From the NCBI GenBank assembly GCA_041740775.1, contig JBGSLI010000185.1:1-42761 (forward strand): a stretch of 42,761 nucleotides of DNA. Direction: 5' to 3'. The position numbers and the translations under genes are program-made. Positions 11,906 to 31,071 of the stretch are shown here, piece by piece (the first letter of the stretch is position 1; the number at the start of each line of letters is the position of its first letter). This DNA comes from Alteraurantiacibacter sp. GTDB taxonomy: Bacteria; Pseudomonadota; Alphaproteobacteria; Sphingomonadales; Sphingomonadaceae. Below the pieces are notes generated by a model, which was not told the origin of the DNA, searched no databases, and saw only the letters and a program-made list of their open reading frames with translations.

Positions 11906-11937
11906 TGTTACAGCCCTTTATGAACCAAACCTTATAT

Positions 11938-12900
11938 TCAATCTACGATGACATCGAAGGTAATTGCCGGACTGGTCCCAGTAGCAACGGTACCCAGATC
12001 AACGGTGATGCCCGTTGCACCCGCTTCGCCTGCGTCATCACCCGCCGCATCGCTCAGCGGGTTGCCGTCCAGCGTAATCGTGCCTGCCGCATAGGTTGTG
12101 CCTGTGGGATAAGGATCGGTGATCAGGAGATTGCTCACTGAACCGCTGCCAGCGACATTTGCGGTAATGGTGTAGGTGATAACCGAGCCGGGCACCGTGC
12201 TGGTGCCGCCGAACGGATCGGCAACGCTCTGTTCCTTGACCAGCGTGACTGCTGTGACGCCCGCAATGACTGAGCCCATAGCAAAGCCCGTCCCCCCCGT
12301 GCTGCCGACAATGGCATTCACGCCGTTCACACCCTGGCCGGCAAAAGCGGTCCCTGGAACGCCGGTTCCGGTCACGGCTTCGGCAAGCAGTTCGACATCG
12401 CTTGTTTGTCCGTCGCCCGCCGAATTGGGCACGATGACATTTACAAAGACGGTGATCTTTTCGTCGGGAGCAAGTTCGGCGGTTGTTTCCGGCCCGGTCA
12501 GGATCTCGTCGATCCCTGCATCATAAATGCCGTTTCCGTTCGTATCGATCGCGATGCTTTCGATACTGGTGTCAAAATCATTTCCGGCGATGGCCGGGTT
12601 TGCCGTAAGCCGGAACGCTTCGGGACCGTTGCCTGTATTGGTCAGCTCGAAGCTGAGGGTAGCCGTGCCTGACGTTGTGGTTACCGGTGCCCCGTCGAGC
12701 GATGTGAGGGCAACATCGAGCAGCTCATCAACGGCGATTTCTACCGTATTGGATGCGACGGTTGCGACGCCCGCAGGCGTATTGAAGGTAGCCTGTGCCG
12801 TGTTCTGGATTATTGTTCCCGCATCGATACCCGTCGCATTTGCAGGCGAGGCATCGATCAGCACATTGGCCATTATCAGAAGGCATGCAGCGTGTTTCAT
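11938..12900 (-). CDS. Secreted DUF11-family protein, paralog of 10316..11365
   Basis: Signal peptide; GIDAGTIIQNTAQATF..SNTVEIAVD; TNTGNGPE; DTNGNGIYD; C-terminal TLVK..VPGSVITYTI..ITDPYP..ITFDVIVD*. Confidence 0.8.
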   Translation of the reverse strand: MKHAACLLIMANVLIDASPANATGIDAGTIIQNTAQATFNTPAGVATVASNTVEIAVDELLDVALTSLDGAPVTTTSGTATLSFELTNTGNGPEAFRLTANPAIAGNDFDTSIESIAIDTNGNGIYDAGIDEILTGPETTAELAPDEKITVFVNVIVPNSAGDGQTSDVELLAEAVTGTGVPGTAFAGQGVNGVNAIVGSTGGTGFAMGSVIAGVTAVTLVKEQSVADPFGGTSTVPGSVITYTITANVAGSGSVSNLLITDPYPTGTTYAAGTITLDGNPLSDAAGDDAGEAGATGITVDLGTVATGTSPAITFDVIVD

Positions 12901-15923: not shown

Positions 15924-17161
15924 ACGCGCTGACCCTGCGGGGGATCGTCGCCGAGGAACTCGGCAATCTTCGGCTCCATGTTGTCGGCAACAGCGCTGGC
16001 ATGGGCGAGCTGCGCAAGACGTGCTGGACGCGCGACCTGCCCGGCTTTGGCACCCGGCACTACGCCAGCGGGCGCAAGGTCTACATCGTCCAGGCACGGA
16101 TGGAAGGCCGCACCCGCACGGTGACAATCGGCAACGCCAAGGTGTTGAGCCGTGCGCAGGCGATGGATGTGGCGCGCCGCGTCCTGTTCCGCGCCCAGAC
16201 CGGCGACAACCCGGCGGAGGAGCGCAAGCGGCTGCGCAAGGTTCCGTCCTACCGCGACTTCCTGAAGACCTACTGGGACCGCGTATCGCCCAAGTGGAAG
16301 CCGTCCACGGTATACACCCACCGCTACTACAAGCGGAAATACCTCGACCGCGCATTCGAGGGCCTGTTCCTCGATGAGATCGAGGAACGCCATGTGCAGG
16401 AATGGTTCAACCGGATTACCAACACCGGCGGACCCGGCGCTGCCAACCGTTGCGGTGAAATCCTTCGAGCGATGTTCAACAAGGCCGAGCAATGGGGCGT
16501 GCGGCCCGAAGGATCGAACCCTTGCCTCTAAATCCGCAAGAACAAGGGAAGGAAATGCGAGCGCTTCCTGTCCGATCAGGAGTTCAGGCGGATCGGGGAA
16601 GTGCTCAACCGGCACGGCAAAACCTTTCCGCTGCATTGCGCGGCGATCAGCCTGCTGATCCTGACCGGCTGCCGCAAGTCGGAGATTACATGCCTCAAAT
16701 GGAGCGAAGTGCGAGGGAGGCGTTTGCTGCTGACCGACAGCAAGACCGGCCCGCGCACGGTCTGGCTAGCCGAAGCGGCAGCGACGATCCTGCACGCCCT
16801 GCCGCGCCGGGAGAAGCAGCGGTATGTGTTCTGGAACCCGGCCACCCAGCGCCCGATTACCGATATCGGTAACTTGTGGAGCAGGCTGCGTGACGAGGCG
16901 GGCCTACTCGGCGTCCGCATCCACGATCTGCGGCACAGCTTTGCCAGCCATGCCGCCACCCATTCTGAAACCCTGCCGATGATCGGCAAGCTGCTGGGCC
17001 ATGCCGATGTTCGGACCACGACCCGCTATGCCCATCTTGACGATGGGCATGTCATCGAGGCAGCGCAGCGCATCGGCGACTGGATCGAGCAAAACATGAG
17101 CGGCTCATATTCATTGAGCCGTAACACTAAGTATGATAGTGAACCGTTGCTGCATGACTAA
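15920..17161 (+). pseudogene. Tyrosine integrase with an in-frame nonsense codon (TAA 16529-16531)
   Basis: ORFs 15920..16531 and 16601..17161 are in the same frame and read ..SNPCL*IRKNKGRKCERFLS..; arm domain (LPGFGTR..SGRKVY), TGCRKSEI, DSKTG, HDLRHSFAS, TTRYAH. Confidence 0.9.
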
Positions 17162-17552
17162 GAATCCGCGCATCCGCATCTACGCCAACCGCTGGTTCGC
17201 CAAGTTCGCGGCAAAGGAAAAGATCAGCGATGCCACGCTTGCCGATGCCGTGCATCGGGCCGAATCCGGCCTGATCGATGCCGATCTTGGCAGCGGTCTC
17301 ATCAAGCAGCGCATCGCGCGCCACGGCGGAGGCAAATCGGGCGGTTATCGCTCGATTCTGATCTTCAGCTCAGGCGAGCGGGCCATATTCGTGTTTGCCT
17401 TCGCCAAGAGCGACAAGGCAAACCTGAATGCGGCGGAACTGAAGGTCTATCGCAAGGCCGCCAGCATCATGCTGGAGCTGGGCGATGACCAGATTGAAAC
17501 GGAAGTTGAATCAGGCCGACTGGTCGAGGTGAAAAACGATGAGCAAGGCTAA
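17154..17552 (+). CDS. Type II TA toxin, RelE/ParE-like
   Basis: RWFAKFA..GLIDADLGSGLIKQRIAR.GGGKSGGYRS..FAFAKSDKANL; overlaps a downstream HTH gene. Confidence 0.9.
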   Translation: MTKNPRIRIYANRWFAKFAAKEKISDATLADAVHRAESGLIDADLGSGLIKQRIARHGGGKSGGYRSILIFSSGERAIFVFAFAKSDKANLNAAELKVYRKAASIMLELGDDQIETEVESGRLVEVKNDEQG

Positions 17553-17868
17553 GGCAAAGACCTACAAGAGCGAGGCGATGGCCGCCGTTCACGAGATGAT
17601 GGAAGGCCTCCACGACGCGGGCAGCATCGACAAGCGCACCATGCGCGAGTTCGATGAAGCCTGCCTTGCGCCTGCGCCCGTCCTGTCGCCCGACGAGATC
17701 AAGGCGATCCGAGAGGCAGAGCATGTCTCGCAGCCGGTGTTCGCGCGCTATCTCAACGTATCGAAGAACCTCGTTTCGGACTGGGAACGCGGAGCGAAGA
17801 AGCCGGGAGGCCCCGCGCTGCGGCTCCTTTCGATCATCCAGCGCGGTGGATTGGATGCGGTGGCTTGA
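17539..17868 (+). CDS. XRE-family HTH antitoxin (HigA-like)
   Basis: IDKRTMREFDEAC..LSPDEIKAIRE..VSQPVFARYLNVSKNLVSDWERG.KKPGGPALRLL. Confidence 0.9.
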   Translation: MSKAKAKTYKSEAMAAVHEMMEGLHDAGSIDKRTMREFDEACLAPAPVLSPDEIKAIREAEHVSQPVFARYLNVSKNLVSDWERGAKKPGGPALRLLSIIQRGGLDAVA

Positions 17869-17900
17869 ACTGGGCCAGCAACGCAGGAGCAGCGGAGCGC

Positions 17901-19040
17901 ATGGAAACTCGAAATTGGCCGCCGGCGGGTCATCGTGAGCCGACCATCGTAGTATATGCTGACCTACAATCGCTGGAAGCGTTGACGGGAATCGCCGCGC
18001 GCGGCGGCGATATTCTGGCGGAGCTTTTCGACTATGCCATTCTGGACGGTTCGGATGATACATGGGTGCACGCACTTCCCAACGGTACCAAGCGTGTTTC
18101 CTTGGAAGACCTAGGTCGGACTCTGCCTTCCGATGCCGTGTTCCTAGTGGGCGGTCCGATGGCTTCGAAGCGGATCAATCAGCTGGCGCTGGCGGGCTAT
18201 CCCCACGTCTACAACTTCAACGAAATCGCGCGCGAGATGTCGGCCAAGCTGCGGCTGCTGGTAGCGCTTGCGCCCGGTTTTGCGGGCAGTAGGGTTCCCG
18301 CGATGCTCGACCCGGTCGGCCAGACCGAGCCGCATCATACGCTGATCGAACCGCTCCATCTGCCGCTACCCTCGCGACTGGTCTTTCTGGTCAACAGCCT
18401 GCCCAAATCGGGCTCAGTGTGGCTGTGCGGGATGCTCGAACATGTGCTTGACGTTTCTGGTTCTGACCGGGTTCGTATTTCGCACTGTGCCGATCTCGTC
18501 TTCGACCAGAACCAGCCCAATCTCGGCGGTGCGGTTTCGCTGGTCCGTGATATGCGCGACGTTGTGGTCTCTTGGTTTTACGATGTCGCTAACTCCGATC
18601 TGAGAACCGGCTTCGAACGCGCGCGCTACCCCGATATCGCCAGCTTTTATTTCGAATGCTTTGTCGGGCTGATCGGGAAATCGGATCGTTATTTTGGCGG
18701 GGACCTGGTCGGGTGGATTGATCGCAACTGTGCGAATTACTGTCCGCTGATCAGGTATGAGGACATGGTCGCGGATCCGCAGGGGGCCCTGACCAAGGTC
18801 CTCAATGCCTGGCGGATTCGCGTGCCCGAAGCGCGAGTGGCGGCCGCGGTGCGGGCCTTCGAGCCCTTCAGGCTGCGAAAGGCAGGCGGGCCGCGCGATG
18901 GGTATGTCGGCAAGATGTATCGGCGCGGCCACTTGCGCAATCCAGGATCGGGCAATTGGCAGAATGAACTGCCAGCCGAAGTCTTGAGAGATATCGAGCG
19001 GCGCTTTGCCGACTACCAACAAAGGCTTGGCTACGCCTGA
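17901..19040 (+). CDS. Sulfotransferase-domain protein with an N-terminal extension
   Basis: PAPS-binding motifs NSLPKSGSVWL (5'-PSB) and VRDMRDVVVSWF (3'-PB), plus IRYEDM and R.PGSGNWQNEL. Start taken at ATG 17901; the ORF is open from 17865. Confidence 0.85.
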   Translation: METRNWPPAGHREPTIVVYADLQSLEALTGIAARGGDILAELFDYAILDGSDDTWVHALPNGTKRVSLEDLGRTLPSDAVFLVGGPMASKRINQLALAGYPHVYNFNEIAREMSAKLRLLVALAPGFAGSRVPAMLDPVGQTEPHHTLIEPLHLPLPSRLVFLVNSLPKSGSVWLCGMLEHVLDVSGSDRVRISHCADLVFDQNQPNLGGAVSLVRDMRDVVVSWFYDVANSDLRTGFERARYPDIASFYFECFVGLIGKSDRYFGGDLVGWIDRNCANYCPLIRYEDMVADPQGALTKVLNAWRIRVPEARVAAAVRAFEPFRLRKAGGPRDGYVGKMYRRGHLRNPGSGNWQNELPAEVLRDIERRFADYQQRLGYA

Positions 19041-19043
19041 GGC

Positions 19044-20246
19044 CTAGGCTGGCTGGCGCAACTGATCTGACACGAAAGTGGCTACCGCGTCGGTCAACGT
19101 CTTGACGTGGATTACGCATTCAGTGGTCTCGCCTGATGCGAAGTCACCGTTTTCTACTAGCTGGGTGAGCTCGAATCCGCCAGGGCACATGGCATAATAG
19201 TCGCAGCTCTGTGCACAATGACGATGACTCTTGCCGAAATCGTCCATCATACGCTCAAGTTTGTCTCCGCCGAGCATCTGAGCGAGCGTCTGCTTCTCGA
19301 TATTGCCGAGGCTAAGTCCCTTTCCATCGCCGTAAAGATCGGCCAGAAACTCGGCGTTGAGACCGGCGTAGAAAGTTGTGATCTCGCCACGAGCATCGCA
19401 GTTGAGCTGGCGCAAGGGCGCGGTTCCGAGGCGGACGAAATCGGGCGCATCCGGCCCAGTCGCAGCACGGATCCGCCCCAGCGTCTGCGAGAAATTTCGC
19501 ACCGGCAACTTGCTTCCCTCAGCATTTTGCGCAAGCGACAGCATAGCACGGTAGAATTCGGCATATTTTTGGGTGTCGTCGCGCGAATAGCCAATCTGTG
19601 GCCCTCCATCCGCGTGGTTGGCGAGGATGTTGAAGTGGAAATCGGTGAGGACATCTGCGCGGGCGAGAAAGAAGTCGATGAACTCTTGCGGCTGCGCCAA
19701 TGTCTCTGCTGTCACAACTGCGATCGCGTTGAATGCAATGCCGCGCTCCGCCAGCAGATCCATCCCACGCTCGGTCTGCGCGTGCGAGCCGCGTCCCGAC
19801 CAGTTGACGCGCAGCGGATCGTGCAGTTCGCGCGGGCCGTCGCAGCTGACGCCGAGCCGCAAATGGTCGCGGTGGCGATCGAAGAACGCGCACCAATTCT
19901 CGTCGATGAGCGTCGCGTTTGTCTGAAAATCAAATGTGATGCCGGCGGGCGTTCCGGGACCGTCGAAGTTGAGCGCCAAGATGAGATCAATCGCCTCGTC
20001 ATAATACTCGGGTGGCAGCGAGAGCGGCTCGCCCGAATGCCAAACGATCGAGACTTCGTCAGCAAGCAGTTCCAGTTGCTTGATCTGTGAGAAAAGCTCG
20101 CCGATCATCGGAATCGGCATTCTGTGGGAGAGTTTACGGCTGGCCGGACTCAGATCGCAATAAGTGCAATTGAGATTGCACAGCGGCGTCCCCTGAAGAA
20201 CGATCATCTCGACCGGAAGGAGGTCAACTGGCCTAGAATCTATCAC
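19044..20246 (-). CDS. Radical SAM/SPASM peptide maturase, GrrM/OscB (cyclophane-forming)-like
   Basis: LQGTPLCNLNCTYC (CxxxCxxC), IVWHSGEPL, FQTNATLI, GVSCDGP, C-terminal CAQSCDYYAMCPGG..ETTEC; layout matches GrrM-type enzymes. Confidence 0.85.
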   Translation of the reverse strand: MIDSRPVDLLPVEMIVLQGTPLCNLNCTYCDLSPASRKLSHRMPIPMIGELFSQIKQLELLADEVSIVWHSGEPLSLPPEYYDEAIDLILALNFDGPGTPAGITFDFQTNATLIDENWCAFFDRHRDHLRLGVSCDGPRELHDPLRVNWSGRGSHAQTERGMDLLAERGIAFNAIAVVTAETLAQPQEFIDFFLARADVLTDFHFNILANHADGGPQIGYSRDDTQKYAEFYRAMLSLAQNAEGSKLPVRNFSQTLGRIRAATGPDAPDFVRLGTAPLRQLNCDARGEITTFYAGLNAEFLADLYGDGKGLSLGNIEKQTLAQMLGGDKLERMMDDFGKSHRHCAQSCDYYAMCPGGFELTQLVENGDFASGETTECVIHVKTLTDAVATFVSDQLRQPA

Positions 20247-20289
20247 TTACCAATGCCCCCGCGCCGGATAGAACCGTGCTACTGTTTTG

Positions 20290-20320
20290 CCTCCGCCCGA
20301 ACGCCATCATACGGCGGAGG
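20290..20320 (-). terminator. GC-rich stem-loop between the small peptide gene and the radical SAM gene
   Basis: CCTCCGCC (20290-20297) pairs with GGCGGAGG (20313-20320). No U-tract on the minus strand, so it may be an mRNA-stabilising or attenuating hairpin. Confidence 0.45.
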
Positions 20321-20366
20321 GCGGGATGGTCTGTCGATGCCAAGCGGCAGCCGACAGACCAAAAAA

Positions 20367-20492
20367 TCAGCGGCGCATCGCCGGGCCCCAGCTCTTCTGG
20401 ACAGAAGCGTCAGAAGCCATGACCGCATCCAGACGTCCGGAAGCAGCGGCATTCTTGATTTCGTTAAGGCAGCTCTTGATTGCGTCAGTCAT
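20367..20492 (-). CDS. 41-aa putative RiPP precursor MTDAIKSCLNEIKNAAASGRLDAVMASDASVQKSWGPAMRR
   Basis: Hand translation (below the ORF-track cutoff); AAGAAGGA RBS 6 nt before the ATG; same strand as and directly upstream of the radical SAM gene; single Trp near the C-terminus. Confidence 0.7.
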   Translation of the reverse strand: MTDAIKSCLNEIKNAAASGRLDAVMASDASVQKSWGPAMRR

Positions 20493-20519
20493 GCTTTGTC
20501 CTTCTTACTGATGGTGATC

Positions 20520-20535
20520 GACGCAGGTCTGCGTC
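20520..20535. promoter_or_regulatory. Palindrome GACGCAG-gt-CTGCGTC upstream of the peptide gene
   Basis: Perfect 7-bp inverted repeat in the divergent intergenic region. Confidence 0.35.
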
Positions 20536-20732
20536 AGAAAAAACAATATAGCAGGAGGTCTGTGAGTCAAACGTTTGTGTGGTATGCTAAACCTGTTGCT
20601 TTCAACCGCTCTAGGGACATAGGATATCGCAACAGTTCCGGCCAACAAACGCGAAACGGTGGGACTACTCGGCTTAATTTCGGATCAGGCTCGCGGTGGG
20701 AATCAATAGTCTTGGTCAATGGAGGCGCCAAC

Positions 20733-21197
20733 ATGAAAATCTACGTCGTATTCCAAGGGGACCGGCGGCCATTGTGTGCCTTTGTGGACGAAGACCAGGC
20801 TGAGACGTTCAAGTCGATACTCGCGTCAAACCCGGAAATCAGGGATAGAGAACTTCGTGTAGGATCTCTGAACCTGATGAAGCATACTGGCCCAAAATTC
20901 AGTGACATTGTCGAAGACGAGGACAAGGTCGACGAGGGGGGCGAACCAATCTTTTTGAGTTATTCTCCGATGCAATCGTCTCCAATCGGCGTAACACGAA
21001 ATCTGGATGACGCCAGAGGTACGGTGTTCGGGTTCAGTGGCAAGGGCGACGTGCTTGCCATCGACCTGTTTCCTTCGGGCGCCAAGATGCCGGGTGGGAC
21101 AAGATTCGAATACGTCAGCAGTTTTGGCGCTGGCTGGAACTTGTCCATGCATGAAAGATGGCGGCGTCACATGTCATTTTTTGCTTCGAACAAATGA
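20733..21197 (+). CDS. Hypothetical protein (154 aa)
   Basis: GGAGG RBS, ATG 20733, ATGA overlap with the next gene; no family recognised. Confidence 0.7.
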   Translation: MKIYVVFQGDRRPLCAFVDEDQAETFKSILASNPEIRDRELRVGSLNLMKHTGPKFSDIVEDEDKVDEGGEPIFLSYSPMQSSPIGVTRNLDDARGTVFGFSGKGDVLAIDLFPSGAKMPGGTRFEYVSSFGAGWNLSMHERWRRHMSFFASNK

Positions 21198-22267
21198 ATG
21201 CTAATCGCGGAGACGCCATAAAATCTGGGGAATGCTTGACCCGCGCGGATGCGGGTGCCCCGGGTCAGTTGCTGATCGACGCCGCAGTCGCCGAAAACAT
21301 GAGCGATGACGAGATTTGCACTGACTTACTCCCATTAATCCGCAGCAATGTCTATCGCGTCGATCCATGCAGGCGCGCCGTCTCGATCGAAGGGCCGGAT
21401 GTCTCCCATCAGCTAATCGATCCTGACTTGGAGGATGGCCTTCGATGGCTTGGCGTCGGATCGTGCGCACGGTCCCGTTTCGACTTTCGCGAGCAGCGAA
21501 GCCGCCTTTTGCTCGCACTTGAAGATAGCTGGTGCGGGGTATTTCTGGCCAGCCATCTTGCCACGCTGCGATCCGACGAGCCGCTCACGATTATCCATCT
21601 GGACGACCACACCGACATGATGTCGACGCTGCTGGTTGTCGAGCAATGTGCCGACGGCTCGTCAGCGCTTGAGGATCCACTTACCGGGGCGCCGTTCGAT
21701 CCCGCATCCCCCGCTGACTGGCACAGTGCGATCACCAGTGGAGCGATCACGATTGGCTCGTTTCTCACACCATTCTTTGCGCTTGATCGTATCGTAGAAG
21801 TGTTTCACCTCAAGGCCGATCTCGAAAAGGCCGAAACCTTTGCGGTCGCTCCGCAAGCGGTAGACCACGATCTGCTGGCAGGGTATCGGTTCCATGCGAT
21901 TGAGCTGGGCGACAGCGAAGCCGACGCAAACCCGAAGCGCCTCTATCGCCGATCGAATGACGCGCACGAACTACTGGCACCGCTAGCGGAAGATCGCCGG
22001 GCCGCGATCCATATCGACCTCGACTATTTCCTCAACGATTACAACGGAAACGCATGGCAGGTGGGCGAGATCGACATGGTTGCGATGCGGAAGTGTGCGC
22101 TTGAGCGGCTGGACCATTTCTTTTCCGCCCTCGACCGATCTGGCATCTCGATCGCGTGCTGGATGATCGGCGTGTCGCCCGGCTTTTGCAGCGCGCGCCA
22201 CTGGCGGTTCCTCATCGAACAGATCGAACGGCGAATTGCCGATCTCGAAGCCATTCTGGCGAGGTAG
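21194..22267 (+). CDS. UPF0489 / peptide-arginase-like metallohydrolase
   Basis: IIHLDDHTDMM (DxHxD), ITIGSFL, IHIDLDYF (DxD) and SPGF: arginase-fold metal ligands as seen in UPF0489 proteins. Confidence 0.7.
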   Translation: MNANRGDAIKSGECLTRADAGAPGQLLIDAAVAENMSDDEICTDLLPLIRSNVYRVDPCRRAVSIEGPDVSHQLIDPDLEDGLRWLGVGSCARSRFDFREQRSRLLLALEDSWCGVFLASHLATLRSDEPLTIIHLDDHTDMMSTLLVVEQCADGSSALEDPLTGAPFDPASPADWHSAITSGAITIGSFLTPFFALDRIVEVFHLKADLEKAETFAVAPQAVDHDLLAGYRFHAIELGDSEADANPKRLYRRSNDAHELLAPLAEDRRAAIHIDLDYFLNDYNGNAWQVGEIDMVAMRKCALERLDHFFSALDRSGISIACWMIGVSPGFCSARHWRFLIEQIERRIADLEAILAR

Positions 22268-22278
22268 TCTAAGCTTGG

Positions 22279-22914
22279 CTAATCGGGCACGTCCGCCGCA
22301 GTGAAACAGGCCGTCAGCATCCAGATATGCTCCCCCTCCTGCAAGCGATGGCGACGATGCCAGAAGCGGCTGCCATGGCCGAACATGACCGCGCCCTGCG
22401 GCGTGGCAATGGTCTTGAGCAGCGCGCCGGGAGCATCGCCGTCATCAACGTAGACTGAAAGATTCAGGCCCGACACCTGGCTGTCGGGGCGAAGCGGCGA
22501 TGCATTTAGATAAAACAGCAGGGTGACTTCGCAGTTGGAAGCATCGTCGCGGTGGGTTTCGAGGAAATCCCCCACCTCGAAAAAGGTATAGCAGCTGGCG
22601 CCGGGGCAATAGCGAAACGGGCGCCCGAAGACGGGTTCGAGCAGGGCCGCAGAAGCCATGCTGCCGAGCACATGGATTGCTGAGGGGCCAAGCGGGGCTA
22701 CGCGCGAACTGTAAGCCAGATCGGCGCTCTCCGATACTGCGCGCTTCGCCTCGGTACGCTTGAAGCGGGCCTCCCGCGCAAGCTCTTTGAGCATTTCGGA
22801 GGATATGGCATCGGGAAAACAATGAAACCCGAAACATTCGATGGATTGCCGGATGCCGGGCAGTTGCGCGCCGTCAAGCCAGGAAATCGCGGGTACCGTG
22901 GCGGCCTGCGTCAT
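22279..22914 (-). CDS. 2OG-Fe(II) oxygenase family protein
   Basis: YTFFEVGDFLETHRD (HxD)..VTLLFYL..G.VMFGHGSRFWHRR (distal His). Confidence 0.75.
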   Translation of the reverse strand: MTQAATVPAISWLDGAQLPGIRQSIECFGFHCFPDAISSEMLKELAREARFKRTEAKRAVSESADLAYSSRVAPLGPSAIHVLGSMASAALLEPVFGRPFRYCPGASCYTFFEVGDFLETHRDDASNCEVTLLFYLNASPLRPDSQVSGLNLSVYVDDGDAPGALLKTIATPQGAVMFGHGSRFWHRRHRLQEGEHIWMLTACFTAADVPD

Positions 22915-23011
22915 ATTGATCGTTGATCCAAACGTAAAAATCGCGAAATCTATGATAACTGGGCGCTCGGTTTAGGCAAGCAGGGGCAGGCGTGAGGGAC
23001 TTATCACGGGG

Positions 23012-24409
23012 ATGACGATTACGGCCATAAATACAGCCCCCGTACACGCAATTGCGGGCGATATTGTTGTCGTCGGCGGCGGAATGGCCGGCCTCACCCT
23101 GGCCCGCAGATTGGCTCCCGGTCGCCGCGTCATTGTGCTTGAGCGGGGCGGTCCGGGGTCGGTGCCGGTTGACCCAGCCTGCGCCAACGGGGAGGTCGTC
23201 GGGCTGCCCTATCCGCTTGGCGAGATCCGCGATTTTCGTCTGGGCGGGTCCAGCTCTGTCTGGGCAGGTTATATCGCGCCACTTGATCGTCGCGACTTCG
23301 CAATCGGCTTTGGAACAGAACTTGGCGGTTGGCCGATCGAATTTGACGAACTGGCTATCTACGCCGATGAAGCCGCGTCATTGCTCAACGTTGCTAGCGC
23401 GGACTTCGCGCCCGACCTGATGGATCTGCCAAAAACGCTGCGCGGGCAACTCTCTCCCCACGGGGTCGACCTGCAGTACTGGCGCTTCAGCAAGCCCATC
23501 GTGCGGATGGCCAACGACTGGTCCCAAGATCTGGCGCAAAGCGCTGAAATCGCCGTCCTGACAGGCGCACGCGCGCTCGAGATCTTACTGACCCACGCGC
23601 AGAATGAGGTCGAGGCGATCACCTGCATGGCTGCGGACGGATCGCGCTTCGAAGTTCGAGGAAGCCTTTATGTGTTGGCATCAGGGGGGCTGGAAACGCC
23701 GCGTCTGATGTTGGCATCGCAAAGCCGGAGCCCTGCTGGCGTCGGCAATTATGAAGGGATGGTCGGTACATGCTTCTGTGAACATCCGCACCTCACGGTT
23801 CCAGGGTTCGAACTGGCGACCGGCAGCCCTTTGAACGCTTACGCGACGACCGGCGCCCTGCGCGATGGCTCGCCTGCAACCGTCAACTTTGCGCTTGATG
23901 CAGGTGCGGCAAACCTCAACGCACGAGCTCACTTTTTCCGCACGCCTGCCATGGCGGAGAACGCCGTTCCAAGACTCGGCATCTTTTGCGAGCAGTCGCC
24001 GATCATCGCGAGCAGGGTTTCTCTCGCGGACGGCTGCGATAGCATCGGGGTGCGCCAGTTGGTGCTGGACTGGCGCATTGCTGAACAGGATATCGAGGAG
24101 TTTGCAGCCATAGCGAACACTCTGTCCGAGGCGTTCGGTCGTGCCGACCATGGACGCTTAGTCCGTGAGCTCCACCCAGGCGACATCGGGCCGGAGCACA
24201 TCCTGCATTCCAATCACCAGCTGGGCACTACACGCATGGCCACCACCGCCCAGCAAGGTGTGGTGGACCGCAATGCCCGTGTATTCGGTGTCGACAATCT
24301 TTTCGTTGCGGGTGGCAGTATCTTTCCTAGGGTAGGCTGGGCCAATCCCACCTTTACGGTCATGCAATGTACGCTGCGCCTTGCCGATCATATTGCGGAG
24401 TTAGTCTAA
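23012..24409 (+). CDS. GMC family FAD-dependent oxidoreductase
   Basis: DIVVVGGGMAG, RLGGSSSVWAG, VLASGGLETPRLML, HQLGTTRM..GVVD..VFGVDNLFVAGGSIFP..ANPTFT. Confidence 0.92.
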   Translation: MTITAINTAPVHAIAGDIVVVGGGMAGLTLARRLAPGRRVIVLERGGPGSVPVDPACANGEVVGLPYPLGEIRDFRLGGSSSVWAGYIAPLDRRDFAIGFGTELGGWPIEFDELAIYADEAASLLNVASADFAPDLMDLPKTLRGQLSPHGVDLQYWRFSKPIVRMANDWSQDLAQSAEIAVLTGARALEILLTHAQNEVEAITCMAADGSRFEVRGSLYVLASGGLETPRLMLASQSRSPAGVGNYEGMVGTCFCEHPHLTVPGFELATGSPLNAYATTGALRDGSPATVNFALDAGAANLNARAHFFRTPAMAENAVPRLGIFCEQSPIIASRVSLADGCDSIGVRQLVLDWRIAEQDIEEFAAIANTLSEAFGRADHGRLVRELHPGDIGPEHILHSNHQLGTTRMATTAQQGVVDRNARVFGVDNLFVAGGSIFPRVGWANPTFTVMQCTLRLADHIAELV

Positions 24410-24411
24410 AA

Positions 24412-24906
24412 ATGAACGCCGCCTCCCTTCAGCATCATGGCTTGTCTCATGTCGGCGTTGCGACCCACGACATGGAAGCGACTATCGCCTTTTATACCGG
24501 GATTCTCGGTTTTCCCGTCGTTGCCGATCACGTTACCGAGATTGGCCAGGGAGGAAGGGTACGTCAGGTCTATTTCGATATCGGTGCGGATACATATTTC
24601 GTGTTCATGGAATCGAAGGGCGTACCCGATATTCCCGAGAATTTTCCGACCGGGATCAACGAAGCTCTGGGCACGCCCGCCGGGATGTTCCACTTTTCTT
24701 TCAACCTTGAAACCCGCGAAGAACTGGTAGCGCGGCAAAATGCGCTCGTTAACCTGGGTATAGGGGTTTCGGACATCATCGACCTCGGCCATGCCGATTC
24801 TATCTTCTTCTTCGACCCCAATAATCTGCAGCTTGAATTCTGCTGGCATTCAAGGCGCTTCGACGCTTCGGACATGGGCAAACGCTCCACCGCGGATCTG
24901 GCCTAG
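24412..24906 (+). CDS. VOC/glyoxalase family protein
   Basis: GLSHVGVATHDMEATIAFYTGILGF..FHFSF..SIFFFDPNNLQLEF; starts 2 nt after the GMC stop codon. Confidence 0.9.
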   Translation: MNAASLQHHGLSHVGVATHDMEATIAFYTGILGFPVVADHVTEIGQGGRVRQVYFDIGADTYFVFMESKGVPDIPENFPTGINEALGTPAGMFHFSFNLETREELVARQNALVNLGIGVSDIIDLGHADSIFFFDPNNLQLEFCWHSRRFDASDMGKRSTADLA

Positions 24907-25499
24907 ACCTGTGGATTTTGTCAGAACATCACCACGTTTGCTGATGCCCATGCAATTCCCACAGATTGCCTTAACACGATGGCTATCTGTTACCAACTTG
25001 GTCCCGGGGGAGATCAAACAGCTATTCTCGACTCTTCTCCTCAAGCCCGGTTTGGGCTAGAAAATCCGCGTGAAACCAAGGCCTTTGCCATCGGAAATCA
25101 GGCGGGGAAGTGGTCGATCACATCGGTCCAAATAGGGAACAACTTCGCGCACACCGAACGCAGCGGCAGCTGCAAAAAAATGACCGAAAAGCGTGAAGAA
25201 ACAGACGCGTTGCCCAAGCGCGAGACGGGACAAGCGAGTTGTTGCGGATCAAGGCCTGCCGATCTTTCGACCTCTCCAAAGGAAACGACAGATCCGATGC
25301 TTGCTGATCAAGGCGAGGAGTTCCGGCTCGAGCGTGGCTTCGCGCGCCGATGCTGTCCAATTGTCATAAGGAGCGCCCAGGATTCGCGCCGAACCGGGTG
25401 ATGAACCGGGGCGACAGGAAGACACAGGCAATTTTGTCACTCCTGCGTCGGGGCGCGCGTGCGCCATTAACTGCCCAGCTTCATCAAGGGAGCTGAAAA

Positions 25500-25960
25500 G
25501 TGAAATTGTTAGAGAGCAAAGTAGCCATCATCACAGGCGCTAGTTCAGGCATCGGGAGGGCGGCCGCAACATTGTTCGCCGCGCACGGAGCGTCGGTGGT
25601 GCTCGTCGCACGACGAAAGGGTCCGCTGGACTTGGCGGTCGAGGAAATCGAAAATCTTGGAGGCCGTGCGCTCGCCATCGTGGGAGACGTAACGGAAGAG
25701 CGCACGCACAAGGAGGCCGTTGCTGCCGCACGGGCACAGTTTGGCGGCTTGCACATTGCCTTCAACAATGCCGGTCTGGTCGGAGCTATGAAGCCGCTGG
25801 TGGAGATCGAGCCTCGGGAATGGTCGGAAGTGCTGGCGGTGAACCTCACGGCCGCGTTTCTCGGCGCTCGAGAACAGATCTCCGCCATGCTGGAGCAGGG
25901 AGCGGGCGCACTTGTATTCACCGGGAGCTTTGTCGGCAACAGCGTGGGGTTGCCGGGTAT
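25500..25960 (+). pseudogene. Short-chain dehydrogenase (SDR), 3'-truncated before the catalytic YxxxK
   Basis: KVAIITGASSGIG, AFNNAG, VNLTAAF, SFVGNSVGLPG, then a switch to antisense GGDEF-gene sequence. Confidence 0.85.
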
Positions 25961-26455
25961 CCGCGCAATGGTGTCTGTGTCCCTGAGGAGCTTGCGAAGC
26001 CGATCCCCAACATACTGAACCAAGAGGTCTCCAGCGGCATGGCCGAGCGTATCATTGACAATCTTGAACCTGTCGAGGTCGAGAATCAGGAGAGCAAACC
26101 TTTCCTTGTTTCGCCGCATTCTGCCAATCGCTTGGCCCAGGCTGTCCTCAAGAAGTGCCCTGTTGGCCAGGCCTGTAAGTGCGTCATGGGCTGCCTGATG
26201 TCTGGCTTTCGCCTCCCGTTTTTCCAACTCGAGGACTACTTCTACAAGAGCCCGGTGAAGCAGAGACATCACCAGAACCGTTACGATTGTCGAAGCCACT
26301 AGAGTGGGCCAAATCAGTTCGAACAGTTGTGGGCCGGACGCAGCGTCTCGCTGCACCACCATCACTGTGGCGAAGTTTGTGAACACGATTGTTGCAATCG
26401 CGGCCGCGACGATTGGTGGCGTCAGTTTACGCGAATACCCCAAATCGACCTCCAT
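25959..26455 (-). pseudogene. Membrane diguanylate cyclase, truncated just before the GGDEF motif
   Basis: Two TM segments, HDALTGLANR, LDLDRFKIVNDTLGHAAGD, DTIARI, then antisense SDR sequence. Confidence 0.85.
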
Positions 26456-27226: not shown

Positions 27227-29572
27227 ATGTATCAACGCGCTGGTTACGCATTCAAGCTACGGTTTCGCAGCCGCGTGCTTTTGCCCGGAGCGGTGATCTT
27301 GTTGGCCACGGCGGCAATCTGCGCGGGCGCGCTGATTGCCGCGGGCCGAGGCACCGATTCGATGATGGCGCTGGGACAGCAAGGCGAAGTCTGGCGCGCG
27401 TTGGCGCGCGGCCTGGACGACCTGTCGGTCGCGCAGGAGTCGGTCGGCCTGTGCGAGGAATGCATCAGCGAGGCCGCATCCCCCGATTCCGATCGCGTGT
27501 GGTTGAACGAGAATATCGGGGCCCGGCTGTTCGACCTGCACAAGGTTCACGAAACATACGTGCTCGATCCCGAGAACCGGCCAGTCTTTGCCTCGGTGCA
27601 GCGCCGAGCCGGGCGTCCGTCAACATATTCTGGCGCGATGCATCGCTCAGGAATATGTCGTCGAGGTAACGCAGGCTGACCAGCACAGGTGGCGGGCTGG
27701 TTTCGTCAAACCCTGCAGTACCGATACGAGCCATGGGCATCACGCTGACAAAGGCGAGATTCTCTCCGATTTGCACAATGTCGGTGGCGTGAACTACCGC
27801 AGGTGTGGTCCGGACCGTCGGATACAGGATCATTGGTTCGTCAGTGAATCCCGGCACCGGCGGCAAGGTTAGCGGCTCGGGGGGAGATCCGGGGAGACGC
27901 TCGTTGAGATTGCTTTGCCCGCTCGGACGCCTGATCTTCCCGCGTGCGAGCATGACGAAACGGTCGACAGCGGGGGCGATCCGCTCATAGACCGAAGGGG
28001 AGACGTTTCGATGATGCGACCAGCCTGCGCCAGGGGGAAGCCTCTATGCCGCTGATGAACAGCGACGGCGTTGTCCTGACCAACATATTCTGGAAGCCTT
28101 TGCAGCCCGGGACCGCCGTAATCAAAATGCTGCTGCTCCCTGCTGCTGGCGTATTCGGTGTCATTACATTCCTCGTCCTTTTTATGGCGTTGCGAATACG
28201 AAGACTCATAAAGCGCGATGCGGAGCACCTGGCCCAGCTCGAACAGGCACATCTCGAACTCACTGCCCAGGAAGCTCAAGCCCTTCACAGAGCCTATCAC
28301 GATGCGCTCACTGGCCTGCCCAATCGTGCATTGTTCAACGACAACGCCGAGAAAGCCCTGTTGGGAGCGCGGCAGGGCGAGAAAATGGCGGTAGTGCTAC
28401 TGGATCTTGACCGATTCAAAAACGTCAATGACCGGTTCGGGCACCTGGCAGGAGACGAACTGATCGGGGAGGTCGGCAAACGGCTTCTAAAGGTACTAAA
28501 GCGAAAAGACGCCGTCGCTCGGTTGGGCGGCGACGAGTTCGCGATATTGCTCCAGGGCGAAGACTTGAAAGGCGGCATTGAGCCGAGGCTGAAGCGGATC
28601 CTCAATGACCTCCATCGCCCTTATGAAGTTCTCGGTAACCAGGCGCACGTCGGCGTTAGCATGGGCATCGCCGTTGCCCCCAGATACGGAACCGATCGCA
28701 CCGACCTTATGCGCAAGGCCGACATTGCACTTTATCGGGCCAAGGATCAGGGTCGCGACTGCTATCGCTTTTTTACCGAGTCAATGGACGAGACCGTCCA
28801 GCTTCGCGCGCAGCTCGAAGAAGAATTGCGGGTTTGTCTGGCTTCGGGCGAGGGGCTCAGTGTGCACTATCAGCCGCTCGTTGATTCGGGTCGGCGCAAG
28901 GTCACCGGGTTCGAGGCTCTGCTGCGTTGGAACCATCCCGAACGCGGGTGGATTCCCCCACAACTTTTTGTTCCTGTTGCCGAAGAGACTGGTCTGATCG
29001 GGGTGCTCGGCGAGTGGGTTCTGCGCGAATCGTGCAAAGTTGCGCTTGAGTGGCCGCAATTGACCGTGGCGATAAACCTCTCCCCCATCCAGTTCTGCGA
29101 TGAGGAGTTCGCCGGGCGAATGATAGCCATCGTGCAGCAAGCGGGCGTGAGTCCGCGCCAGATTGAGCTCGAAGTGACCGAGGGCGTCGTACTCGACCAG
29201 AACGAAACGGTGCGTGGGTCCCTGCGAAGGTTGCGGGAGGAAGGCTTCGGCATTGCGCTCGACGATTTCGGTACCGGCTATTCATCGCTCAGCTATTTGC
29301 GCGATTTTGACGTCGACCGGATCAAGATCGACAAAAGCTTCGTGCGCAGCCTCGGCCAAACCATGGACGCCAACGCGATCATCATTGCAGTCGTCACGCT
29401 CGGACACGCCATGGGTCTGCAAGTCACCGCCGAGGGTGTCGAAACTGCCGACCAGGAAGATTTCCTGCGTGCCGCGGGTTGCAATGTGCTGCAGGGCTTC
29501 TGGTTCTCGGAAGCGGTGCCGGCGAGCGAACTCGGCGCATTCATCTGTAAACACGCACGAAAGGCTGCCTGA
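27227..29572 (+). pseudogene. CHASE4-GGDEF-EAL diguanylate cyclase/phosphodiesterase interrupted by an internal inversion (27612-28003)
   Basis: The N-terminal TM and sensor start are on +, the sensor middle is on -, and the TM-GGDEF(ARLGGDEF)-EAL(GFEAL, DDFGTGYSSL) part is on +. Reversing 27612-28003 gives one 781-aa ORF. The 28046..29572 part is still open. Confidence 0.85.
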
Positions 29573-29660
29573 TTCCAATTCGTGTAGAATACATCTCCAC
29601 AAAGGGAATTGGGAATGCACAATTGGTGTCAGCGCAGGCCTGGCAAAACTGGACATCGGG

Positions 29661-29850
29661 ATGTGCAGGCGACCACAAGGGAACCACAGCCCCTCATCCG
29701 AAGCGAAGGCAGCGCTGGCCGCCGTCGAGGGCGAGCAGACGCTGGCCGGGTTTGCGCGGTGGTGTGGTTTTCACACTTCTCAGATCATGGCCTTGTCGAC
29801 CCAACTGCTGGTCGGTGCTGCGGGAGTATTCGGCGCGTACCCCGCCGTGG
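29661..29850 (+). pseudogene. IS3-family OrfA remnant
   Basis: NHSPSSEAKAALAAVEGEQTLA..HTSQI..QLLVGAAGVFG is a degenerate IS3 OrfA HTH. Confidence 0.65.
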
Positions 29851-29906
29851 CGGAACTGGACAGTCGAAGTCACGCCAGTCAGCCACATTGCAATTGGGGG
29901 GGCGGC

Positions 29907-30506
29907 ATGACCGAGACCATTGCCCGATTGCACATCGCGCTTGCCGATACCGATCCGATCATCTGGCGCCGGGTGGATTTCCCGGTCGATGCCAACCTCA
30001 AGATGCTGCACGATGTCATCGACGGCACGATGGGCTGGCTCGAGTTTCACCTCTGGGAGTTCGAGGCAGACGACAGGCGCTACGGCGTGCCCGATCCCGA
30101 CTGGCCCGGCGATCGCCTGTTCGCGGGCAAAAGCACAATGCTCAAGACGCTGCTCGAGCGCAATGTCCATCAGTTCCTCTATACCTGCGACATGGGTGAC
30201 AACTGGGAGCACATCGTCACCGTCGAAGCTGTCGAGGATGGTCAGAGTGGATGCATATATCCGCGATATGTCGAGGGCGAATACCGCAGCCTGCCCGAGG
30301 ACTGGGGCGGCACGCCCGGCTTGAAGCCTTTCTTGACGCCGTCCAGGCATCCCGAGCACAAGGACGTCACCGAGTGGCACCAGGGCTGCTACGGCAAAGC
30401 CTTCAATCCCGACGAATTTGACGAACGCGATGCAAAGCTCAGGATCGGCGCCATCGCCAAACGTCGCGCCGCAGGTAAAGTCGCTCAGGCCAGAAAGTCA
30501 CGCTAA
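29907..30506 (+). CDS. Plasmid pRiA4b ORF-3 family protein, possibly degenerate
   Basis: IWRRV..L..LHDVI..MGW..HLWEF..YG..DMGDNWEH..YPRYVEGE..PEDWGG; several consensus positions deviate. Confidence 0.8.
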   Translation: MTETIARLHIALADTDPIIWRRVDFPVDANLKMLHDVIDGTMGWLEFHLWEFEADDRRYGVPDPDWPGDRLFAGKSTMLKTLLERNVHQFLYTCDMGDNWEHIVTVEAVEDGQSGCIYPRYVEGEYRSLPEDWGGTPGLKPFLTPSRHPEHKDVTEWHQGCYGKAFNPDEFDERDAKLRIGAIAKRRAAGKVAQARKSR

Positions 30507-30590
30507 CAAGGTGGCCTACACGCCACATTTACGGGGAATAAATCTCCGTCAAAGTTGACAAACTATTGCGTCTGAATTGATAGGTCCAAA

Positions 30591-31067
30591 ATGGACCCAT
30601 TAGAATCAGCGGGCGCAAGCCAAGAAGCGGCAGATCCGAAGATCTGGGGAAATAAGGCAGGCCAGTGGCTGGTCCGTTCGGCACACTGTGATCAGAATTT
30701 TGCTGAGGTCGAGCTGGTTCGGGAGTTCGGCGAACTGCTGAATTGCGCGCCGGTTGTGCTTCTTGATCTGTTGTCCCTGGAGCCTGATTTTTCGAATATC
30801 AACGCATTTCTGGAAATCGGCGCTACCGAGACAATCGTGCACCATGTGTTGGGAAAAGCCAGTGGCGGATATATTGTTTCGAAGGGTGCCGACAAGCGCT
30901 ACATCGCCACTTTTTTTGTCCCCGGGCACATTCCGGAAACGCATTTTATTGCTTCGCGTATTTCACTCGCGCTGGCCGGTGCGCTGCTTCGCGGCGCATT
31001 CGATATCTGCACTAGGCACAAGCAAAAGCTTCCGTGTTCATTTCCGCTGCGCCTGGTAGAAGACTGA
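30591..31067 (+). CDS. Hypothetical protein
   Basis: 158-aa ORF filling the gap, convergent with the wHTH gene; no family recognised. Confidence 0.55.
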   Translation: MDPLESAGASQEAADPKIWGNKAGQWLVRSAHCDQNFAEVELVREFGELLNCAPVVLLDLLSLEPDFSNINAFLEIGATETIVHHVLGKASGGYIVSKGADKRYIATFFVPGHIPETHFIASRISLALAGALLRGAFDICTRHKQKLPCSFPLRLVED

Positions 31068-31071
31068 GCCT

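What the first reader, a model, noticed from the sequence alone, without database searches (positions are those of the whole stretch)
17901..24906. Candidate novel RiPP cluster: GrrM/OscB-like radical SAM with peptide arginase, sulfotransferase, 2OG oxygenase, GMC and VOC enzymes
Seen: within about 7 kb, a radical SAM/SPASM gene with a short RBS-bearing peptide ORF directly upstream, surrounded by a PAPS sulfotransferase, a UPF0489-like hydrolase, a 2OG-Fe(II) oxygenase, a GMC oxidoreductase and a VOC protein. The block sits as island cargo between a TA module and a deletion scar. Known: GrrM/OscB-type enzymes form aromatic-to-Cbeta cyclophanes (triceptides), and UPF0489 peptide arginases such as OspR convert peptidyl Arg to ornithine. 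Inference: a heavily tailored small cyclophane peptide (crosslinked, Orn-containing, possibly hydroxylated then sulfated), a combination I do not recognise. No protease or exporter is visible, and the genes lie in several transcription units, so cluster limits are uncertain.
Basis: partly seen in the sequence, partly recalled or inferred. Interest (0 to 1): 0.9.

Follow-up and report, generated by a model that had tools for sequence, protein, structure and literature searches.

The report
Trp-Gly-Pro peptide stapling and tailoring cluster
This is a real gene cluster, conserved across many bacteria, in which a 41-residue peptide ending SWGPAMRR sits beside a radical SAM enzyme that likely staples its tryptophan to the proline, with partner enzymes predicted to hydroxylate that proline, convert arginine to ornithine, oxidise and sulfate it, which would give an undescribed natural product.

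Summary
Observation confirmed; the cluster is real. The precursor (20367-20492, -) ends SWGPAMRR. A W-G-[P/S/T] peptide lies directly upstream of the radical SAM gene in all 43 of 44 clade loci that have upstream sequence. These enzymes form one branch (100/100) among GrrM/OscB-like maturases, apart from sulfatase maturases, but miss the TIGR04261 cut-off (242 vs 310). A predicted enzyme-peptide complex scored 0.87 (best control 0.00). The hydrolase, 2OG, GMC and VOC genes recur in shuffled order; the sulfotransferase in three lineages. New here: an intact 2OG gene accompanies Pro precursors (17 of 19) and no Ser precursor (0 of 7; one keeps a frameshifted remnant), over four parsimony switches (too few for significance), pointing to prolyl hydroxylation. 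The hydrolase has the OspR fold (Z 16.3) with an inferred His-to-Asp ligand swap. All 20 GMC loci keep Ser before Trp. No chemistry is shown; no protease or transporter is in this copy. Ten literature searches found no such family; key subscription papers were unseen. This scan noted the family before in another genome (e1-5256593). Verdict: new variant of triceptide-like RiPPs, directly testable.

The parts
20367..20492 (-). Precursor peptide, 41 aa: helical leader plus C-terminal core S-W-G-P-A-M-R-R (core codons 20370-20393)
   Evidence: ORF and RBS; homologues upstream of 43 of 44 clade rSAMs; predicted complex 0.87 vs control 0.00
19044..20246 (-). Radical SAM/SPASM maturase, GrrM/OscB-like sister branch; cysteines for the SAM cluster and one auxiliary cluster
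   Evidence: TIGR04261 242 bits (<310), NF041718 208 (<425); invariant Cys; trees
21194..22267 (+). Peptide-arginase-fold hydrolase (UPF0489-like): E122-D123, D149-x-H151-x-D153, D287-x-D289, S340; start overlaps the stop of the orphan gene (ATGA)
   Evidence: Model pLDDT 91; OspR 8BRP Foldseek E 1e-6, Z 16.3, rmsd 3.4, 216 aligned; column counts
22279..22914 (-). Fe(II)/2OG-type dioxygenase, H121-x-D123...H186; likely prolyl hydroxylase of the W-G-P core
   Evidence: Fold: prolyl-4-hydroxylases top in Foldseek, HalB Z 20.1, OGFOD1 Z 17.8; co-occurrence with Pro
23012..24409 (+). GMC flavin oxidoreductase with His402/Asn445
   Evidence: PF05199, PF00732; both residues invariant in 17 of 17; PDB relatives are sugar/alcohol dehydrogenases
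24412..24906 (+). VOC (glyoxalase/epimerase-type) protein with four metal ligands H28/E82/H109/E157 (numbered from 24367)
   Evidence: PF00903; ligands in 15 of 15; PDB hits glyoxalase and methylmalonyl-CoA epimerase
17865..19040 (+). PAPS-dependent sulfotransferase with N-terminal extra domain; start overlaps the antitoxin stop
   Evidence: PF00685 above cut-off; PKSG and RDxRDVVVSW motifs invariant in 7 of 7; 8 loci, all Pro type
20733..21197 (+). 154-aa orphan ORF (GGAGG RBS; segment 51% GC) replacing the ~800-aa pentapeptide-repeat-like gene found here in relatives; probably not a core part
   Evidence: no family hit
17133..17868 (+). RelE-type toxin / HTH antitoxin pair flanking the cluster, after integrase fragments; kept in L001-L003
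   Evidence: PF06296, PF01381; synteny
25484..26455 (.). Rearrangement scar: truncated SDR (25500-~25957, +) abutting an inverted truncated GGDEF gene; outside the cluster
   Evidence: similarity to relatives ends at ~25160

Best explanation
This is a conserved peptide natural-product (RiPP) cluster whose radical SAM enzyme is predicted to bind the precursor's leader helix and likely crosslinks the core Trp to the Pro two residues on, while the 2OG enzyme likely hydroxylates that Pro and the arginase-fold enzyme likely turns the conserved Arg into ornithine. Shown: genes, folds, co-conservation, tree position. Step estimates: peptide is the rSAM substrate 0.95; Trp-containing crosslink (-2 Da) 0.8; three-residue Trp-to-Cbeta(X3) ring 0.6; 2OG enzyme hydroxylates Pro3 (+16) 0.65; Arg6 to Orn (-42) 0.65; sulfotransferase caps a peptide hydroxyl, probably the new hydroxyproline (+80) 0.45; GMC oxidises the Ser before Trp to an aldehyde (-2) 0.35; VOC isomerises or epimerises that carbonyl product 0.25; the aldehyde closes a second ring on the Orn6 amine 0.15-0.2. 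Position 3 behaves as a hydroxyl handle: Pro versions carry the hydroxylase (and sometimes the sulfotransferase); Ser versions lack it and mostly carry a ribosyltransferase-like gene and an FkbM methyltransferase. Leader removal and transport would need outside genes in this copy.
For: Precursor directly upstream in 43 of 44 clade loci; the other (L010) has 108 bp upstream. L021 has two tandem cores. Clade 100/100 inside the GrrM-like radiation, anSME outside. W and G are the only invariant core columns in 32 aligned precursors, and the divergent L101 keeps SWGP but not MR, which favours a W-G-X3 ring. Complex 0.87 vs best of 3 controls 0.00 (mark reached by 116 of 157 solved and 2 of 215 mismatched pairs; runs agree in >=84% of contacts; partner pLDDT >=85); leader on helix 385-393, core residues 24-41 touch barrel residues. 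OscB links Trp C7 to Cbeta at i+2 and MscB uses Ser Cbeta (PMC11002830, passages). Pro with intact 2OG 17 of 18, Ser 0 of 7; 4 parsimony changes of each trait, 3 of 3 independent pairs agree. L016 (Ser) keeps a frameshifted, truncated 2OG remnant. Five OspR metal ligands are invariant in 114 of 114, as is E122, the inferred equivalent of guanidine-binding Glu11. L101 lacks the hydrolase genome-wide and has Lys at position 6. GMC loci have Ser(-1) in 20 of 20; the four non-Ser(-1) loci show no GMC.
Against: No chemistry was observed. I found no Pro acceptor among the characterised triceptides in the papers read. X3 varies (P/S/T) while M5 and R6 are more constant, so the ring could close elsewhere. 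The Pro-2OG link rests on 3-4 independent pairs (sign test p 0.25), and the informativeness rule counted any 2OG-bearing locus as informative. Two Pro loci lack the 2OG gene: L066 (broken rSAM) and G682/L101, a complete genome with no family member. The L016 deletion also removed the hydrolase, so it may be general decay. His12 of OspR is not conserved, and the more distant relatives lose E122, so the substrate may not be Arg. L004 and L031 keep Arg6 without the hydrolase. The 2OG enzyme has Val/Ile where the usual 2OG-binding Arg is expected. Ser(-1) is the default residue (33 of 36 tails), so the GMC link is weak, and L039 has Ser(-1) without GMC. The complex score may reflect likeness to solved maturase-peptide pairs.
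Confidence: 0.55

Rival explanations
1. Same cluster and substrate, different radical SAM chemistry: an ether through the position-3 hydroxyl (Ser, Thr or hydroxyproline oxygen), a larger ring from Trp to Met5 or Arg6, or oxidation of Ser to formylglycine/aminomalonate.
For: Position 3 always has or can gain a hydroxyl (P with 2OG, S, T). M5 and R6 are conserved in >=90% of 32 precursors. Related maturases make C-O links (DarE) and over-oxidise Ser (PMC12186529 introduction). The branch has a long stem and misses the GrrM cut-off.
Against: L101 keeps W-G-P but not M or R, and has Pro with no hydroxylase. The nearest characterised family, OscB, makes i to i+2 C-C links.
Confidence: 0.25
2. The peptide is cut down to a small cofactor, signal or metal chelator (PQQ/mycofactocin logic). 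GMC and VOC then use or recycle the product rather than build it, and the SbmA/YddA-type ABC protein takes it up.
For: GMC's best NCBIfam hit is mycofactocin MftG, far below cut-off. GMC is the only partner in the minimal L101 locus. The transporter beside the rSAM in 14 loci is of the SbmA/BacA-ABC_membrane_2 type, a group I recall as including importers. Very short single core.
Against: Patchy, mobile distribution (1 of 400 other phylum genomes would be expected more often for a cofactor: found 0 of 400, and 1 of 400 in the order). Variable decoration genes (sulfotransferase, ribosyltransferase-like, methyltransferase) fit specialised metabolites. GMC presence tracks a peptide residue, weakly.
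Confidence: 0.12
3. Only precursor plus rSAM form a system; the other genes are island cargo that hitch-hike, or the copy in this window is decaying.
For: Four transcription directions, a TA module, integrase fragments, a replaced gene at 20663-21237, and no transporter or protease here. Some loci have few partners (L004, L031, L101).
Against: The same hydrolase, 2OG, GMC and VOC families (30-55% identity) flank rSAMs of 38-57% identity in at least five gene orders. No outgroup GrrM-like locus gave a hit to them (many are short). All seven genes here are intact with catalytic residues.
Confidence: 0.06
4. The rSAM is an anaerobic sulfatase maturase and the peptide is incidental.
For: The best PDB sequence hit of the family profile is anSME 4K36; a sulfotransferase is adjacent.
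Against: TIGR03942 128 bits vs cut-off 349; excluded from the anSME branch; no sulfatase gene in the window; peptide always upstream.
Confidence: 0.02

Closest known systems
GrrM/OscB (TIGR04261) triceptide maturases with GrrA/OscA precursors; AmcB (NF041718)
   Same: Best NCBIfam match for all 110 family members; same radiation on the tree; aromatic-X-X motif near the C-terminus; precursor directly upstream.
   Different: 242 bits vs cut-off 310; own long-stem clade; a single W-G-P/S/T core followed by xMR rather than repeated W/F-x-N/D motifs (seen in outgroup loci); Pro as putative acceptor; large tailoring set.
OspR peptide arginase (PF12640, PDB 8BRP; landornamide)
   Same: Top fold match (Z 16.3, next 11.5); DxHxD and DxD ligands, Glu before the first ligand, Ser in place of arginase Glu277 (inferred); sits in a RiPP cluster with an Arg in the core.
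   Different: 14-17% identity; EDSW in place of EEH(N/H), i.e. inferred His12-to-Asp; about 100 extra N-terminal residues; window protein has no Pfam hit.
Peptidyl prolyl hydroxylases (Pseudomonas P4H 4J25/4IW3, PHD2, OGFOD1) and BesD/HalB amino-acid halogenases/hydroxylases
   Same: Double-stranded beta-helix fold, HxD...H triad.
   Different: 12-20% identity; invariant Arg two residues after the distal His and no Arg at the usual later position; substrate inferred from co-occurrence only.
Multi-tailored rSAM RiPPs: minviopeptin (PMC12912966), biphenomycin-like pbs cluster (PMC12257519)
   Same: rSAM crosslink combined with an alphaKG-dependent or cupin oxygenase and, in pbs, an arginase whose presence tracks an Arg in the core.
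   Different: Different motifs (YSK/HAS/FTK; FHAFRF) and enzymes; the passages read mention no GMC, VOC or sulfotransferase.
Mycofactocin MftG (GMC)
   Same: GMC oxidoreductase beside an rSAM-peptide pair.
   Different: 48.5 bits vs cut-off 400; unrelated precursor and rSAM family.

Membership tests
GrrM/OscB (TIGR04261) | Score above curated cut-off 310 | tested here: not met
   242.1 bits
GrrM/OscB (TIGR04261) | Radical SAM CxxxCxxC plus C-terminal SPASM-type cysteines | tested here: met
   C23/27/30 and C344/348/354/377 invariant in 110 of 110
GrrM/OscB (TIGR04261) | Groups with annotated GrrM proteins rather than anSME | tested here: met
   100/100 branch with four annotated GrrM proteins; own sub-clade 100/100; sister within GrrM unresolved
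GrrM/OscB (TIGR04261) | GrrA/OscA-type precursor with repeated W/F-x-N/D motifs | tested here: not met
   Single WGP core; no NCBIfam hit for the peptide; repeats seen only in outgroup loci
Triceptides | Aromatic-X2-X3 motif in the core | tested here: met
   W-G-P/S/T in all 44 precursors seen; definition from PMC11499958
Triceptides | Aromatic-to-Cbeta crosslink on three residues | not testable with these tools
   Needs MS/MS and NMR
Peptide arginases (PF12640/OspR) | Ureohydrolase fold closest to OspR | tested here: met
   Z 16.3, rmsd 3.4, 216 aligned; Foldseek E 1e-6
Peptide arginases (PF12640/OspR) | DxHxD and DIDLDYF motifs | tested here: met
   D149/H151/D153 and D287/D289 in 114 of 114; motifs from PMC10028609
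Peptide arginases (PF12640/OspR) | EEH(N/H) motif with the His ligand | tested here: not met
   E-D-S-W; no His in columns 122-125 of 114 relatives; D123 in 113 of 114. Register E122=E11, D123=H12 is inferred from the aligned range
Peptide arginases (PF12640/OspR) | Pfam PF12640 at gathering score | tested here: inconclusive
   Window protein no hit; 78 of 114 relatives hit at E<=1, best 9.3e-6; distant P0390 passes cut-off
Peptide arginases (PF12640/OspR) | Peptidyl Arg to Orn activity | not testable with these tools
   Needs assay
Fe(II)/2OG dioxygenases | DSBH fold and HxD...H triad | tested here: met
Fe(II)/2OG dioxygenases | Basic residue binding the 2OG C5 carboxylate | tested here: inconclusive
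   Usual position (recalled from PHD2/BesD) is Val/Ile; R188 invariant in 34 of 34 may replace it
GMC oxidoreductases | GMC N and C domains with catalytic His/Asn pair | tested here: met
   PF00732, PF05199 above cut-off; H402/N445 invariant (role of the pair recalled)
PAPS sulfotransferases | PF00685 and PAPS-binding motifs | tested here: met
   35.1 vs 22 bits; motifs invariant in 7 of 7 (motif meaning recalled)
VOC metalloenzymes | PF00903 and four H/E metal ligands | tested here: met
   48.2 vs 20.6 bits; 15 of 15
Anaerobic sulfatase maturases | TIGR03942 cut-off and tree position | tested here: not met
   128 vs 349 bits; outside clade

The most novel reading that the evidence does not exclude
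A new RiPP subclass: a Trp-to-Pro cyclophane whose proline is hydroxylated and sulfated, with a second ring closed when a GMC-made aldehyde at the Ser before Trp meets an ornithine made by a His-to-Asp arginase variant (Lys stands at that place in the one genome without the arginase). It would give first roles for GMC and VOC enzymes in peptide tailoring, and a modular Pro-hydroxyl-sulfate versus Ser-ribose-methyl switch.
Probability: 0.15. Interest if true: 0.88.

Novelty: new variant of a known kind. Interest (0 to 1): 0.66.

Why it matters
Radical SAM cyclophane peptides include antibiotic scaffolds and useful stapling enzymes. This family is broad (366 rSAM hits, the best 120 at 46% identity or more; cultured carriers in Sphingobium, Novosphingobium and Altericroceibacterium) and appears uncharacterised. 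It offers a candidate Trp-Pro crosslink and five tailoring enzymes on an eight-residue core. The natural covariation (Pro with hydroxylase, Arg with arginase, Ser(-1) with GMC) names the residue each enzyme should act on, so a few E. coli co-expressions would settle it.

Tried and rejected
anSME identity rejected. Sequence search of the PDB with hydrolase profiles found no arginase; only fold search did. A PF12640 search in 301 genomes rang nowhere, controls included, so it is uninformative, and I could not align OspR residue by residue. My first reading of the motif as His-to-Ser was dropped because S124 varies while D123 does not. Viral contigs gave only distant rSAMs at 25-29%. Plasmids gave no clade member, best 32%. 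PADLOC gave no defence-system call for the cluster. Promoter and terminator scans were at chance level (4 vs 3.0 and 10 vs 8.4 expected). No SbmA/YddA-type transporter or other partner gene was found in the own genome, which is 73% complete. No RNA holder listed. The 154-aa orphan had no family hit and could not be searched in the Atlas. The sulfotransferase had no PDB sequence hit. Dropped before the Pro/2OG count: 14 loci with too little flanking DNA (including Pro locus L008 and Ser locus L027), L010 (no precursor visible) and four duplicates (L017, L024, L025, L029); L066 was in the table but not in the tree. The Fisher p (1.7e-5) is not used because kin are not independent. Literature: and supplement searches found no WGP/WGS-xMR family. 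The review PMC11897777 was not held, and Nguyen 2020 and Sugiyama 2022 (about 3900 predicted triceptide pathways) were seen only as citations; their supplements may list this family as a prediction.

Full report
Observation. The ORF list and sequence show, left to right: integrase fragments, a RelE-type/HTH toxin-antitoxin pair (17133-17868), a sulfotransferase (17865-19040, +), a radical SAM gene (19044-20246, -), a 41-aa ORF with a ribosome-binding site (20367-20492, -) ending SWGPAMRR, a 154-aa orphan (20733-21197, +), a 357-aa hydrolase (21194-22267, +), a 211-aa oxygenase (22279-22914, -), a GMC oxidoreductase (23012-24409, +) and a VOC protein (24412-24906, +). A truncated SDR fused back-to-back with a truncated GGDEF gene follows near 25957. 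Pfam confirms the sulfotransferase, rSAM, GMC and VOC above cut-off. The hydrolase and oxygenase needed folds (below). The block is 58% GC in a 63% GC genome.

Close copies. Sphingobium sp. Ant17, Novosphingobium sp. PC22D and Altericroceibacterium spongiae carry the same block at 87-91% DNA identity, with the TA pair and integrase. Similarity ends near 25160. In them an 800-aa gene with pentapeptide-repeat-like features lies between precursor and hydrolase; in the window 20663-21237 is replaced by the orphan gene. Public contigs show both forms. Only 0 of 400 other phylum genomes and 1 of 400 other order genomes searched had the rSAM: patchy, mobile cargo.

The rSAM family. A homologue search returned 366 proteins, the best 120 at 46-100% identity. 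NCBIfam's best match is GrrM/OscB (242 bits, cut-off 310), then AmcB; sulfatase maturase scores 128 vs 349. A profile scan of metagenomes gave 76 loci. Trees place the window enzyme in a clade with 100/100 support and a long stem, inside the radiation of annotated GrrM proteins and apart from anSME (quick tree of 65 rows, careful tree of 27 selected rows).

The precursor. Of 44 clade loci (window included), 43 have a short ORF directly upstream ending x-W-G-[P/S/T]-x-[M/L]-R-x; L010 has only 108 bp upstream. The search pattern fixed W, G, M and R, but no clade locus was lost to it: L028/L038 (SWGTALRV) and L101 (SWGPNNKR) were read directly. Among 36 distinct tails, position 3 is Pro in 26 and Ser in 10, and position -1 is Ser in 33. 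L021 has two cores in tandem. The pattern occurs once in the own genome. A complex of rSAM, SAM, 4Fe-4S and precursor scored 0.87 against a best control of 0.00 (mark reached by 116 of 157 solved and 2 of 215 mismatched pairs; contacts agree >=84%; partner pLDDT >=85). The leader lies on helix 385-393 and the core touches barrel residues. This supports binding but may reflect likeness to solved pairs.

Partner genes. Profile searches of the 44 loci found the hydrolase in 24, GMC in 20, the 2OG gene in 20 (one a remnant), VOC in 15, an ABC transporter in 15 (14 SbmA/YddA-like) and the sulfotransferase in 8; many contigs are short. In the 12 loci with 3 kb or more on both sides: hydrolase 10, GMC 9, 2OG 9, VOC 8, sulfotransferase 5, ABC 4 (five of the 12 are close island copies). 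Order and orientation differ between lineages, which marks a functional unit rather than one inherited block. Outgroup GrrM-like loci gave no hits to these genes.

Hydrolase. The model (pLDDT 91) matches peptide arginase OspR best by a clear margin (Z 16.3, rmsd 3.4, 216 aligned; next 11.5). OspR binds Mn through H12, D39, H41, D43, D165, D167, and Glu11 is proposed to hold the guanidine (PMC10028609, sections 4 and 8 and passages). Here D149/H151/D153 and D287/D289 are invariant in 114 relatives, and the first motif is E122-D123-S-W with E122 in 114 and D123 in 113. I infer E122=E11 and D123=H12, a His-to-Asp ligand swap; the register was not checked on coordinates. In 74 more distant relatives E122 is mostly lost, so the cluster-linked group keeps a residue its cousins do not. 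Arg6 is the likely target. L101's genome lacks the hydrolase and has Lys there. Against: L004 and L031 keep Arg without it.

Oxygenase. The model (pLDDT 91) has the 2OG fold; Foldseek ranks prolyl-4-hydroxylases first and VIA-align HalB (Z 20.1), OGFOD1 (17.8) and PHD-type enzymes. HxD...H is intact; the usual 2OG-binding Arg is replaced, and invariant R188 may take its place (inference). After removing duplicates and short loci, an intact gene was present with 17 of 18 Pro precursors and 0 of 7 Ser precursors; each trait changes four times on the tree and all 3 independent pairs agree (p 0.25, cannot reach 0.05). In L018, L020 and L030 the rSAM abuts the hydrolase where close Pro-type relatives have the 2OG gene between them, and L016 (Ser) keeps a frameshifted, truncated remnant. 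Counter-examples: L066 (broken rSAM) and L101, found later, with Pro and no family member in a complete genome, making 17 of 19. Four of the seven Ser loci carry a gene weakly like ribofuranosyl transferase 7SHG (E 0.4, motifs aligned), with an FkbM methyltransferase beside it; no Pro locus does. All 8 sulfotransferase loci are Pro type.

GMC and VOC. GMC keeps H402/N445 and resembles sugar and alcohol dehydrogenases. VOC keeps four metal ligands, so it is probably an enzyme and not a binding protein. They are usually neighbours; VOC never appears without GMC except in truncated L010. All 20 GMC loci have Ser(-1), and the four loci with Gln, Ala or Arg there show none (two with wide flanks), but Ser is the default and L039 has Ser without GMC. 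The divergent L101 locus is only precursor, rSAM and GMC (26% identical to the window's). Oxidation of Ser(-1) to an aldehyde, handled by VOC or trapped by the position-6 amine, is my preferred but weak guess.

Maturation and export. No protease or transporter is in this copy. L031 and L039 have an M42 aminopeptidase with a beta-lactamase-family serine hydrolase nearby, three loci have an alpha/beta hydrolase, and one relative of the hydrolase is fused to a beta-lactamase-family domain (P0275). These are candidates only.

Comparison with the known. Triceptides are defined by an aromatic-to-Cbeta link on three residues (PMC11499958, first third read). Characterised acceptors listed are Arg, Asn, Asp, Ser, Ala and Lys (PMC11002830 passages; PMC12912966 passages); I saw no Pro. 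Arginase-plus-rSAM clusters exist (PMC12257519 passages) with other motifs. Ten full-text searches and two supplement searches found no WGP-xMR family (listed under Tried and rejected); the main triceptide surveys are not held and may list it as a prediction.

Verdict. A genuine, widespread, apparently uncharacterised triceptide-like RiPP family. It works like GrrM/OscB but fails that family's cut-off and precursor type. The cluster assignment is near certain; the ring topology and each tailoring step are inferred. New variant of a known kind; interest 0.66.

Noticed in passing
L010:3016-4251, L020:8982-10220, L022:13406-14632, L040:1545-2780 (with FkbM genes beside them; DSP-phosphatase-like gene in L010, L022): Ser-type clusters carry an unannotated ~410-aa protein whose best PDB match is ribofuranosyl transferase 7SHG (E 0.4; CARGG, SR and DTGVFGSI align with its motifs). 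Possible phosphoribosylation, dephosphorylation and methylation of a RiPP.
   Followed up: partly
window 20733-21197 (+): 154-aa orphan with a strong RBS, coupled to the hydrolase by an ATGA overlap, replacing an 800-aa pentapeptide-repeat-like membrane gene found in L001-L003, L007, L009 and L029.
   Followed up: partly
window 17133-19040: The sulfotransferase start overlaps the antitoxin stop, so it may be transcribed from the toxin-antitoxin promoter; same in L001-L003.
   Followed up: no
L101:9258-11939 (G682): Minimal divergent version: precursor ending SWGPNNKR, rSAM and GMC only, beside a two-component pair and CHAT-domain-like genes.
   Followed up: partly
P0327-P0400: A large sister family of the hydrolase with D-x-W, DDHxD and DxDYFNNR motifs, some fused to GNAT or ATP-grasp domains; context unknown, may mark other peptide-modifying systems.
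   Followed up: partly
L021:580-699: Precursor with two SWGPMMR cores in tandem.
   Followed up: no
L044, L046, L054, L061, L068 and others: Separate GrrM-like group with precursors ending QFRNFPNFPNFSNWRNR; also WTNGVGWADFTKNL precursors in L057, L059, L062.
   Followed up: no
window 2950-12900 (-): Run of large DUF11/carboxypeptidase-regulatory-domain genes (up to 1709 aa), probably a surface or adhesin locus, next to an integrase at 1705-2847.
   Followed up: no
window 28046-42113: More island cargo: GGDEF-EAL, pRiA4b ORF3-like, RadC, IS110, HipA, GDP-mannose dehydratase and epimerase, IS5- and IS1595-type transposases.
   Followed up: no
L004:4653-5546; L039:9845-10690: Extra oxygenases (TauD-like, PhyH-like) directly in two clusters that lack GMC.
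   Followed up: no
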